Made by a program: the position numbers and the translations under genes. A DNA stretch of 64,000 bases from Felis catus. Lineage: Eukaryota. Location of the stretch: NCBI RefSeq assembly GCF_018350175.1, contig NC_058369.1, forward strand, positions 4,154,001 to 4,218,000, read 5' to 3'. The first letter of the stretch is position 1, and the number at the start of each line of letters is the position of its first letter. Below the pieces are notes generated by a model. That model had not been told where the DNA came from. It ran no database searches and saw only the letters and a program-made list of their open reading frames with translations. This document shows positions 33,606-35,383 of the stretch, piece by piece.

Positions 33606-35383
33606 ATGGCTTTGCGCTACCCTATGGCCGTGGGCCTCAACAAGGGCCACAAGGTAACCAAGAACGTGAGCAAGCCGAGGCACAGCCGCCGCCGCGGGGT
33701 GAGTGCGGGTGCGCGCGTCGGGGGGAGGCGGGTAGGTCCCCGGCGACAGTGGTGGGGCGCAGGCGGGGACTCGTGGGCGGCGTGGAGGGTGTGAGACTCG
33801 CCCGAGCAGCGAGTGGAGACCCGTGCGAATCGCCTGCGTGAGGAGCGCCCACCTGGGCCGCACACCTGGATGCGCCCCGCGCGGGTGTTTGCCGGGCGCA
33901 CGGGGCCTGGGTCGAGGGGTCGAGGCCGGAATGTGGAAGGAAAGCGGAGGCCCTGTTAGGCTTGTGATCTCCGCTGCACCGGGTTTAAGGGCTCCGTCGT
34001 TAAGCTGCGACTCCATGGTGCCCAGCTGCGCCCCCTGGGAGAGGTTTCCGGGCGCAGGCAACAGCCTAGGTCAAGGCCGGGCGGGAGGGCCCTGTCGAGA
34101 AGGCTGGGAGTCGGGGGTGCGGGTGAGGAGGAGTCACGCTACCGTCGTGGCGCTCAGCGCCCCGGGTGGCGTGGGCTCCGAGCGCCTCGCGCTGACGGCC
34201 GTCCCCCCCAACCCCCAGCGCCTCACCAAGCACACCAAGTTCGTGCGGGACATGATCCGAGAGGTGTGTGGCTTTGCCCCCTACGAGCGGCGAGCCATGG
34301 AGCTGCTCAAAGTCTCCAAGGACAAGCGCGCGCTCAAGTTCATCAAGAAAAGGGTAGGTGGATGGGGCGCCTGGGGGGCTCAGTCGGTTAAGCCGGGGCT
34401 TCGGGTCGTGATCTCGCGGTAGGGGGAGCAAGCTCCGCGACACCTCCGGCTCTGCGCTGACAGCTCGGAGCCTGTGTCAGATTGGAGGGATCTCGCTCGC
34501 TCTCTTCCTCTCGAGCCCCTCTCTGTCCCTCCCCTGCTTGCGTGCTCCCAAGAATAAACGTGGAAAAAGAAGGTGGTTGGGGTGCCTGGGTGGCTCATTC
34601 AGTTAAGGGTTGACTCTTGGTTTTGGCTCAGGCGGTGATCTCCAGGCTCCACGGGTTCCAGCCCCACATGGAGCTCTGCACCGGGAGCAGGGAACCTGCC
34701 TGGGATTCTCTCTCTTCCCTCTCCCACTCGCACTGTCCTGTCTCAAAATAAGTAAATGTCACGGTCGCCTCGGTGACTCAGTCTGTTAAAACCTCCAGCT
34801 TTGGCTCAGGTCATGACCTCCTGGTTGGTGCATTGGAGCCCCACGTGCTGACAGCTCGCAGCCTGGCTGGGATCGTGTCTGCCTCTCTGCCCCTTACCTG
34901 CTTGCGCTGTGTCTAAATATTTAAAATGTTTCAAATCTGAGAACCCAGTTTTCCCCTAATGATAGCTTTGAAAAAAAGGTGGGGGGGGGGGATAGGTGGA
35001 CTGTTGGCAGGGCCGGGGCTTGGGGCCCAGACTGACCGCTCCGTCTCTTTTTCTTTCTTTCTTTTTCCTTTTTTTTCAACGTTTATTTATTTTTTGGGGA
35101 CAGAGAGAGAGCATGAACGGGGGAGGGTCAGAGAGAGAGGGAGACACAGAATCGGAAACAGGCTCCAGGCTCTGAGCAGTCAGCACAGAGCCCGACGCAG
35201 GGCTTGAACCCACGGACAGTGAGATCGTGACCTGAGCCGAAGTCGGACGCTTAACCGACCGAGCGCACCCCACTCCGTCTCTTTTCTCGGCAGGTGGGGA
35301 CACACATCCGCGCCAAGAGGAAGAGAGAGGAGCTGAGCAACGTCCTGGCGGCCATGCGGAAAGCGGCAGCCAAGAAGGACTGA
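33606..35383 (+). CDS. RPL36: 60S ribosomal protein L36 (eL36), 105 aa
   Basis: Exons 33606-33698, 34219-34353, 35294-35383 total 318 nt. [56 protein letters not shown]...[29 protein letters not shown]. Confidence 0.98.
34364..35272. mobile_element. Four Can-SINEs in the last RPL36 intron: ~34364-34568 (+), ~34579-34757 (+), ~34762-34925 (+), 35052-35272 (-)
   Basis: GGGGCGCCTGG...GCTCAG heads, CT-rich bodies, A-rich tails; 13-bp TSD on the last element. Confidence 0.9.

What the first reader, a model, noticed from the sequence alone, without database searches (positions are those of the whole stretch)
35031..35293. SINE inserted between branch point and 3' splice site of RPL36, with loss of the SINE's competing CAG
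Seen: a 13-bp TSD CTCCGTCTCTTTT (35039-35051 and 35273-35285) flanks an antisense Can-SINE. Removing it restores ACTGACCGCTCCGTCTCTTTTCTCGGCAG, a CTGAC branch point at -25, now displaced 234 nt upstream. The SINE supplies CTTAAC (35250-35255) with its A at -40. Other copies in this window end GACTGAGCCACCCAGGCGCCCC (61457-61478; similar at 12261). This copy reads GACCGAGCGCACCCC, missing the 7 nt CACCCAG. That CAG would have been a well-placed acceptor upstream of the true one. Inference: exaptation of a SINE branch point plus a compensatory deletion that preserved splicing of an essential ribosomal protein gene.
Basis: partly seen in the sequence, partly recalled or inferred. Interest (0 to 1): 0.7.

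Follow-up and report, generated by a model that had tools for sequence, protein, structure and literature searches.

The report
SINE lodged in RPL36 splice acceptor
A short jumping-gene copy landed just before the last exon of a cat-family ribosomal protein gene and pushed away its likely splicing branch point; the copy probably supplies a replacement and has lost a motif that would likely have acted as a rival splice site, which may be why this insertion was tolerated while similar ones cause disease in dogs.

Summary
A young antisense feline Can-SINE (35052-35271) sits in RPL36 intron 3 directly after the old CTGAC branch motif (now -259; 26 AGs lie between it and the acceptor). The duplication is probably 16 bp, not 13. 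The exact 7-nt loss occurs once in the genome, against 46,192 exact intact heads, so it is no subfamily trait. But CAG-removing head deletions recur at unrelated loci (about 1 copy in 2,000), and 4-9% of copies lose this AG anyhow. A genome screen found a second exon with the same layout and an AG-less head (an ABCA-type transporter exon); no intact head was found in that layout before a recognisable exon among 183 sites (p = 0.11 without RPL36). RNA reads showed no sign of retention or cryptic use, but no junction or lariat could be measured. Most likely: the SINE supplies the branch point and the AG-less head passed a survival filter; a later 'compensatory' step is unproven. A tolerated variant of known dog disease alleles.

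The parts
34219..34353 (+). RPL36 exon 3 (coding)
   Evidence: sequence; junction seen in retrocopies
34354..35293 (+). RPL36 intron 3, 940 nt, GT...CAG
34363..34573 (+). older sense Can-SINE remnant starting 9 nt after the donor; about 65% identical to the antisense copy, predicted to pair with it
34580..34925 (+). two further degraded sense Can-SINE remnants (ends approximate)
35032..35036 (+). old host branch motif CTGAC, A35035 (-25 in the empty site, -259 now)
35036..35051 (+). upstream target-site copy (16 bp reading; exact 13-bp core 35039-35051)
35052..35271 (-). antisense feline Can-SINE, young, member of a tight group of near-identical copies
35052..35076 (+). SINE tail read as a 25-nt interrupted T tract (longest T run 8)
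35101..35103 (+). merle-type cryptic acceptor CAG, first AG after the old branch motif and T tract; use would add 190 nt and shift the frame
35250..35255 (+). SINE-borne CTTAAC, candidate new branch point A35254 (-40)
   Evidence: use inferred, not mapped
35260..35263 (+). T>C change at 35260 and the remaining GAG (A at +8 from A35254)
35264..35265 (+). site of the 7-nt loss (CACCCAG) from the SINE head
35270..35285 (+). downstream target-site copy, now the pyrimidine tract; A35272 (-22) probably from CpG decay
35291..35293 (+). true acceptor CAG
35294..35415 (+). RPL36 exon 4 (stop 35381-35383, AATAAA 35405-35410; 3' end approximate)

Best explanation
An antisense feline SINE inserted one base after the likely old branch adenosine of RPL36 intron 3, and the intron is probably now spliced from a branch point inside the SINE head (most likely A35254 in CTTAAC), using the duplicated host pyrimidine tract and the original CAG. 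The head's own CAG, which would be the first strong AG after that branch point, is gone; this loss likely acted as a survival filter (lost at or soon after insertion, by a kind of deletion that recurs in this SINE family) rather than as a proven later rescue. The second rival acceptor, after the T-tail, is predicted to stay quiet because the tail is short and interrupted, as in cryptic merle dogs. Shown: the anatomy, the uniqueness of the exact lesion, its background rate. Inferred: which adenosine branches, that the AG loss was needed, the role of tail length.
For: 26 AGs lie between A35035 and the true acceptor, incompatible with a distant branch point under the scanning rule (PMC1431707, passages). 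The last upstream AG is at -32, so the branch should lie at or below about -47; A35254 is the only candidate there with -2 U and +1 C. With the 7 nt present a CAG would sit 16-17 nt after it, in the high-risk zone (93.1% of pathogenic AG-creating variants; GAG less often pathogenic; PMC9284458 section 18), and its use would add 29 nt (frameshift; from the sequence). Screen: of 23 hand-counted AG-less heads in front of an acceptor-like motif, 2 precede coding exons with no host branch motif left downstream (RPL36; L245, an ABCA-type exon, Pfam PF00005 E 5.9e-12); of 183 intact heads none did, and the two that precede exons keep a host branch-like motif downstream of the SINE (L177 phosphofructokinase, Pfam E 6.4e-14; L172 probable exon). 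T tract 25 nt, longest run 8; cryptic merle alleles have 25-55 nt and use the original acceptor (PMC6091007, passages). SINE-free intron bins have 0-1 read depth in two raw RNA runs.
Against: No lariat or junction read was obtained, so the branch point is unmapped. My crude U2 pairing tally ranks A35258 (9) above A35254 (8). -40 is at the far edge of the usual range, and the remaining GAG at +8 is inside the high-risk zone as defined in PMC9284458. The better-placed CTGAG motif (-32) lost its U by a T>C change, which is not what selection for a SINE branch point would predict. The screen is weak: p = 0.11 without RPL36, 0.012 with it, only 98 of 139 and 90 of 481 intact sites were examined, and Pfam misses many exons. 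The AG is lost in 3 of 72 to 11 of 123 unselected copies. Long-range folding buries CTTAAC in a duplex with the upstream sense SINE (unpaired probability 0.06; 0.71 with a 150-nt span limit).
Confidence: 0.5

Rival explanations
1. Neutral lesion: the intact insertion was already tolerated (the head CAG has no pyrimidine tract and loses to the true acceptor), and the 7-nt loss is one of the background deletions of this SINE family.
For: CAG-removing head deletions occur at unrelated loci: 11 of the first 30 of 154 matches by eye (12 by script), including RPL36, about 1 copy in 2,000. Any-route AG loss is 4-9%. The CCTGGG change at L245 also occurs at a non-exonic site (L239). L177 shows an intact head 38 nt before an intact exon. 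Cryptic merle dogs use the original acceptor despite a SINE next to it (PMC6091007).
Against: A 1-in-2,000 lesion happens to sit in the one place where the AG would matter; L177 keeps the host CTGAC downstream, so it is not the same layout; no intact head was found in the RPL36 layout before a recognisable exon (0 of 183).
Confidence: 0.25
2. One reading: the intact SINE inserted, impaired splicing, and a later compensatory deletion rescued it.
For: The lesion is private to this locus and removes exactly the predicted rival AG while moving CTTAAC from -47 to -40.
Against: No intermediate allele seen. A strongly harmful allele of a ribosomal protein gene would likely be lost before a rare second hit arrives (inference). 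The head can also be read as a 10-nt 5' truncation plus a 1-nt insertion, that is, a loss at insertion (from the sequence).
Confidence: 0.13
3. The new branch point is not CTTAAC but a closer adenosine: A35258 (-36), A35267 (-27) or A35272 (-22), the last two probably made by CpG decay; splicing then needs neither the SINE's motif nor, for the closest ones, the deletion. Not exclusive of the best explanation: mixed use is common.
For: These lie nearer the old distance of -25, and two lie downstream of the remaining GAG; A35258 scores 9 in the pairing tally. Many introns use several or weak branch points (PMC4315302, passages).
Against: None has the -2 U that PMC4315302 reports as the most conserved position; tallies are 6-7 for -27 and -22.
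Confidence: 0.3
4. The deletion matters because it loosens an intron-spanning duplex between the sense SINE after the donor and the antisense SINE before the acceptor, freeing the splice signals.
For: The intron folds far better than shuffles (z -5.2) with the two SINE heads paired next to both splice sites; putting the 7 nt back lowers the energy by 12 kcal/mol and the donor's unpaired probability from 0.63 to 0.46.
Against: The copies are only about 65% identical; accessibility of CTTAAC, the pyrimidine tract and the acceptor does not change; the donor effect vanishes with a 150-nt span limit. No locus-specific editing could be read.
Confidence: 0.05
5. The old CTGAC at -259 still serves as a distant branch point, with the SINE looped out.
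For: It is the strongest motif near the 3' end (tally 11) and is followed by a long pyrimidine tract.
Against: 26 AGs follow it; verified distant branch points have AG-free zones (PMC1431707). It would favour CAG 35101-35103 instead.
Confidence: 0.04

Closest known systems
Canine merle allele: antisense SINEC_Cf at the PMEL intron 10/exon 11 boundary (PMC6091007 passages; PMC7349775 passages; PMC13756887 passages)
   Same: Antisense tRNA-derived carnivore SINE in an acceptor, duplicated host tract, displaced branch point, T-tail followed by a cryptic AG; short tails let the original acceptor work.
   Different: Here a felid SINE in a housekeeping ribosomal protein gene, no sign of cryptic use, short interrupted tail, and a head that has lost its AG. 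The passages read do not say which branch point cryptic merle alleles use.
Canine HCRTR2 narcolepsy and FAM161A PRA3 SINE insertions (PMC3976383 passages; the HCRTR2 paper itself not read)
   Same: SINE 15-35 nt before an acceptor, proposed to push the branch point out of range.
   Different: Those cause exon skipping and disease; this exon is terminal and cannot be skipped to a later exon, and the gene reads intact.
Branch points supplied by inverted Alu elements (PMC4315302, passages of section 10)
   Same: An antisense SINE consensus carries a usable branch motif; 154 were mapped by lariat reads.
   Different: Those serve new Alu-derived exons; here the motif would serve a pre-existing constitutive exon, and no lariat is mapped.
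AG-exclusion-zone variants (PMC9284458 summary, passages and section 18; PMC1431707 passages)
   Same: An AG more than 6 nt after the branch point and before the acceptor is usually damaging; losing such an AG can activate the downstream acceptor.
   Different: Human point variants, not an AG carried in and then lost by a mobile element.
Depletion of SINEs just upstream of exons (PMC3088655 passages; bioRxiv 10.1101/2020.10.27.358119 passages)
   Same: This copy lies inside the zone where SINEs are rare and usually selected against.
   Different: The passages read report the depletion, not which sequence change lets a copy survive there.

Membership tests
Feliform Can-SINE | High identity over head, microsatellite and tail to a large dispersed family | tested here: met
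   87-93% over about 200-240 nt to the best 40 scored of 8,217 candidates; 8 of 165 non-CpG and 2 of 22 CpG sites differ from the majority of the 9 nearest copies
Feliform Can-SINE | A-rich tail and target-site duplication | tested here: met
Feliform Can-SINE subtype IIA (SINEC_Fc2-like) rather than IIB | Lacks the IIB A-box T>G change and one-base indel (PMC4084570 section 6) | tested here: inconclusive
   The copy has the GAGC head and the longer CTGAGCCG form, unlike the GCGC/CTGGCTG copies, but the paper's alignment figure was not visible and its GGCTCGG motif could not be placed
Subfamily that lacks the 7 nt | Same shortened head at many loci | tested here: not met
   1 match; relaxed pattern 5 matches, of which the other 4 are different lesions
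Merle-type acceptor-proximal SINE allele | Antisense SINE between branch motif and acceptor | tested here: met
Merle-type acceptor-proximal SINE allele | T tract followed by a cryptic AG | tested here: met
   CAG 35101-35103
Merle-type acceptor-proximal SINE allele | Aberrant splicing | tested here: inconclusive
Merle-type acceptor-proximal SINE allele | Presence/absence polymorphism | not testable with these tools
Exapted TE branch point | Lariat mapped to the TE adenosine | tested here: inconclusive
   No back-joint to the donor among the 15 joints shown; 274 not shown; oligo-dT and single-cell libraries rarely hold lariats
Exapted TE branch point | Motif conserved across species carrying the insertion | not testable with these tools
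   G000 has no relatives here
Compensatory mutation | Second change arose after the first and restores function | not testable with these tools
   Needs an intact-head allele or a minigene

The most novel reading that the evidence does not exclude
The antisense feline SINE head is a ready-made replacement branch point with one flaw, a CAG 16-17 nt downstream; copies that land between branch point and acceptor of a coding exon persist only once that AG is lost. RPL36 (7-nt deletion) and an ABCA-type gene (CCCAGG to CCTGGG, L245) would be two independent cases of a genome-wide rule that separates harmless from disease-causing SINE insertions at acceptors in carnivores.
Probability: 0.35. Interest if true: 0.65.

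Novelty: new variant of a known kind. Interest (0 to 1): 0.42.

Why it matters
SINE insertions just upstream of acceptors cause narcolepsy, retinal atrophy and merle in dogs and are depleted genome-wide, yet the rules for which ones are survivable are only partly known (tail length). This locus offers a natural, fixed-looking counter-example in a gene that cannot be lost, with two separable predicted determinants (head AG, tail length) that one minigene series can test. If the rule holds, it would help predict which polymorphic SINEs near exons in cats and dogs are harmful. If not, it is a tidy curiosity. I found no paper on this locus in one search (RPL36, SINE, intron, feline; 10 of 550 listed, none relevant) and none on a SINE replacing the branch point of a constitutive exon; subscription journals are mostly not covered and no supplements were read.

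Tried and rejected
1. One search gave 510 'shortened' heads; inspection of 30 loci showed most are an A>C substitution with the CAGG still following, so the count was dropped and redone. 2. I first placed the tail acceptor at 35105-35107 with an in-frame 186-nt insert; one search corrected it to 35101-35103, 190 nt, frameshift. 3. The idea that GGGACAG after the tail is a locus-specific AG loss: the same form is common in other copies, though the 9 nearest copies have GAGACAG; left open. 4. RNA: reads from other SINE copies swamp the intron (96% of laid reads run on unlike), so listed base changes and joints are not locus-specific; no editing or lariat evidence. Exon-exon junction counts are missing. 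Contig runs X15 and X16 gave no piece across the SINE. 5. Retrocopies (17; 73-91% identical) record the normal junction but look older than the SINE, so they say nothing on present splicing. 6. L105 (weak HORMA hit, E 0.018; no PDB match) and other weak Pfam hits (E 0.009-0.04) were not counted as exons. L172 had no Pfam or PDB support and is called probable from its open frame and GT donor. 7. The automatic site classifier was too loose; the 23 and 183 counts are by hand. 8. Two papers sought by PMC id were not held, so the original merle and dog SINE exonization papers were not read. 9. No look-alike stretch in earlier scan notes.

Full report
The locus. The window holds RPL36 on the plus strand; its last exon matches Pfam PF01158. 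Intron 3 runs 34354-35293. The SINE family marks the genome as a felid's (PMC4084570, section 6 and passages read); no relative genome is held.

Observation. An antisense Can-SINE lies between two copies of CTCCGTCTCTTTT. The match extends three bases further with one G/A mismatch at a CpG, so the duplication is probably 16 bp and begins one base after the adenosine of CTGAC. That adenosine was at -25 and is now at -259. The copy is young: against the majority of its 9 nearest copies it differs at 8 of 165 non-CpG sites, six of them in the tail and (GA)n zone, and 2 of 22 CpG sites, while those copies differ at 0-5. No date or species range could be set.

Is the missing CACCCAG special? The exact shortened head matches once in G000; the exact intact head matches 46,192 times and intact-length heads 122,715 times. 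It is not a subfamily trait. But the kind of lesion recurs. A first count of 510 was mostly false. A tighter pattern gave 154 matches; in the first 30, 11 by eye (12 by script, RPL36 included) were deletions that remove the head CAG, several with a clean duplication, 11 were deletions that keep an AG and the rest were not deletions. That is roughly 56 in 122,715, about 1 in 2,000, a lower bound. By any route the AG is gone in 11 of 123 unselected copies from 464 kb (alignment-based) and in 3 of 72 with strict flanks. The lesion can also be read as a 10-nt 5' truncation plus one inserted base, so it may date from the insertion itself (from the sequence).

How the intron is probably spliced. Twenty-six AGs lie between the old branch adenosine and the true acceptor. 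Verified distant branch points have AG-free zones, and only AGs within about 12-15 nt of the branch are bypassed (PMC1431707, passages). The last upstream AG is at -32, so the branch should be at or below about -47. Of the adenosines there, A35254 in CTTAAC alone has the -2 U with a +1 pyrimidine; a crude U2 pairing tally gives it 8, A35258 9, A35267 7, A35272 6, and the old site 11. With the 7 nt present, a CAG would follow A35254 at +16/17 and its use would add 29 nt. In human variant data 93.1% of pathogenic AG-creating variants lie more than 6 nt after the branch point and more than 5 nt before the acceptor, and GAG is the least harmful form (PMC9284458, section 18). This fits loss of the CAG and retention of the GAG at +8. 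Against a neat story, a T>C change at 35260 removed the U of the better-placed CTGAG motif.

The old branch motif is now followed by a T tract and a CAG at 35101-35103; its use would add 190 nt and give a wrong C-terminus. This is the acceptor type activated in dog merle, where tails of 25-55 nt leave the original acceptor in use (PMC6091007, passages). The tail here is 25 nt with a longest T run of 8, so tail shape may matter as much as the head. The intron also holds three older sense SINE remnants; folding pairs the first with the antisense copy next to both splice sites (z -5.2), but they are only about 65% alike and restoring the 7 nt changes accessibility little.

RNA. The intron was laid on two raw RNA runs (12.9 million reads each) and two contig sets. 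Reads from other SINE copies swamp it. SINE-free bins, including the last 11 nt before the acceptor, have depth 0-1 in both raw runs, which argues against heavy retention or cryptic use, but reads may be filtered, RPL36 expression was not measured, the animals' genotype is unknown, and no junction or lariat was seen.

A genome screen for the same layout. I searched for SINE heads directly before an acceptor-like motif: 139 intact against 4 AG-substituted with a strict pattern, 481 against 46 with a looser one. In bulk there is no clear excess of AG loss, as expected if most motifs are chance. I examined 98 of the 139, all 4, all 46 and 90 of the 481, scanning frames that passed an open-frame filter against Pfam (3 repeat frames and 3 duplicates dropped). 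Among 23 AG-less heads (hand count) two precede coding exons: RPL36 and L245, an ABCA-type transporter exon (PF00005 E 5.9e-12; best PDB matches ABCA3 and ABCA1) where a young SINE abuts the pyrimidine tract, its head reads CCTGGG and no AG lies between CTTAAC (-43) and the acceptor. Among 183 intact heads, two precede exons (L177, phosphofructokinase; L172, probable), and both keep a host branch-like motif downstream of the SINE. Fisher p is 0.11 without RPL36 and 0.012 with it; RPL36 is the discovery case, so the first figure is the fair one. Suggestive, not shown.

Comparison. It works like the dog PMEL, HCRTR2 and FAM161A alleles (PMC6091007, PMC7349775, PMC3976383, PMC13756887; passages) but without evident harm, and like inverted Alus that supply branch points (PMC4315302, passages), though for an old constitutive exon. 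SINEs are depleted in this position (PMC3088655 and bioRxiv 10.1101/2020.10.27.358119, passages). Unchecked notes of this scan describe similar layouts in a camelid and in sharks; they are leads only and lower the sense of rarity.

Verdict. Real feature, mechanism plausible and partly supported. My odds: branch now within the SINE head region about 0.85; A35254 the main site about 0.55; AG loss functionally needed about 0.6; a strict later compensation about 0.13. New variant of a known kind; interest 0.42.

Noticed in passing
L245:386-790 (G000:C37:50274769-50275815, minus): Young antisense SINE abutting the pyrimidine tract of an ABCA-type transporter exon (Walker A); head AG changed, no AG between CTTAAC (-43) and the acceptor; very short tail, long host pyrimidine tract upstream. 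Second case of the RPL36 layout.
   Followed up: partly
L177:278-738 (G000:C16:74930688-74931734): Young antisense SINE with intact head 38 nt before a phosphofructokinase exon; its 16-bp duplication copies the host CTGAC so a branch motif stays downstream.
   Followed up: partly
L172:292-680 (G000:C16:41720627-41721677): Antisense SINE with intact head before a probable coding exon (open frame, GT donor, no Pfam hit); CTTAAT remains downstream.
   Followed up: partly
window 34363-34925: Three sense SINE remnants fill most of RPL36 intron 3, the first 9 nt after the donor; with the antisense copy they can fold the intron into a long hairpin.
   Followed up: partly
window 11844-12273: Two antisense SINEs in tandem, both followed by the same flank (CCAAGGAGTTTATTTTA), suggesting one inserted into the other's target site or a local duplication.
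   Followed up: no
G000, loci L345-L374: Recurrent 4-11 nt deletions in the SINE head with intact ends and duplications, suggesting a slippage-prone segment.
   Followed up: partly
L048-L064: 17 RPL36 retrocopies, 73-91% identical to exon 4.
   Followed up: partly
window 35416-35865: The next gene ends tail-to-tail about 90 nt after the RPL36 polyadenylation signal on the minus strand (LONP1 by recalled gene order, not tested).
   Followed up: no
L224: Retroviral gag fragment (Pfam Gag_p30) caught by the pattern; not a SINE site.
   Followed up: no
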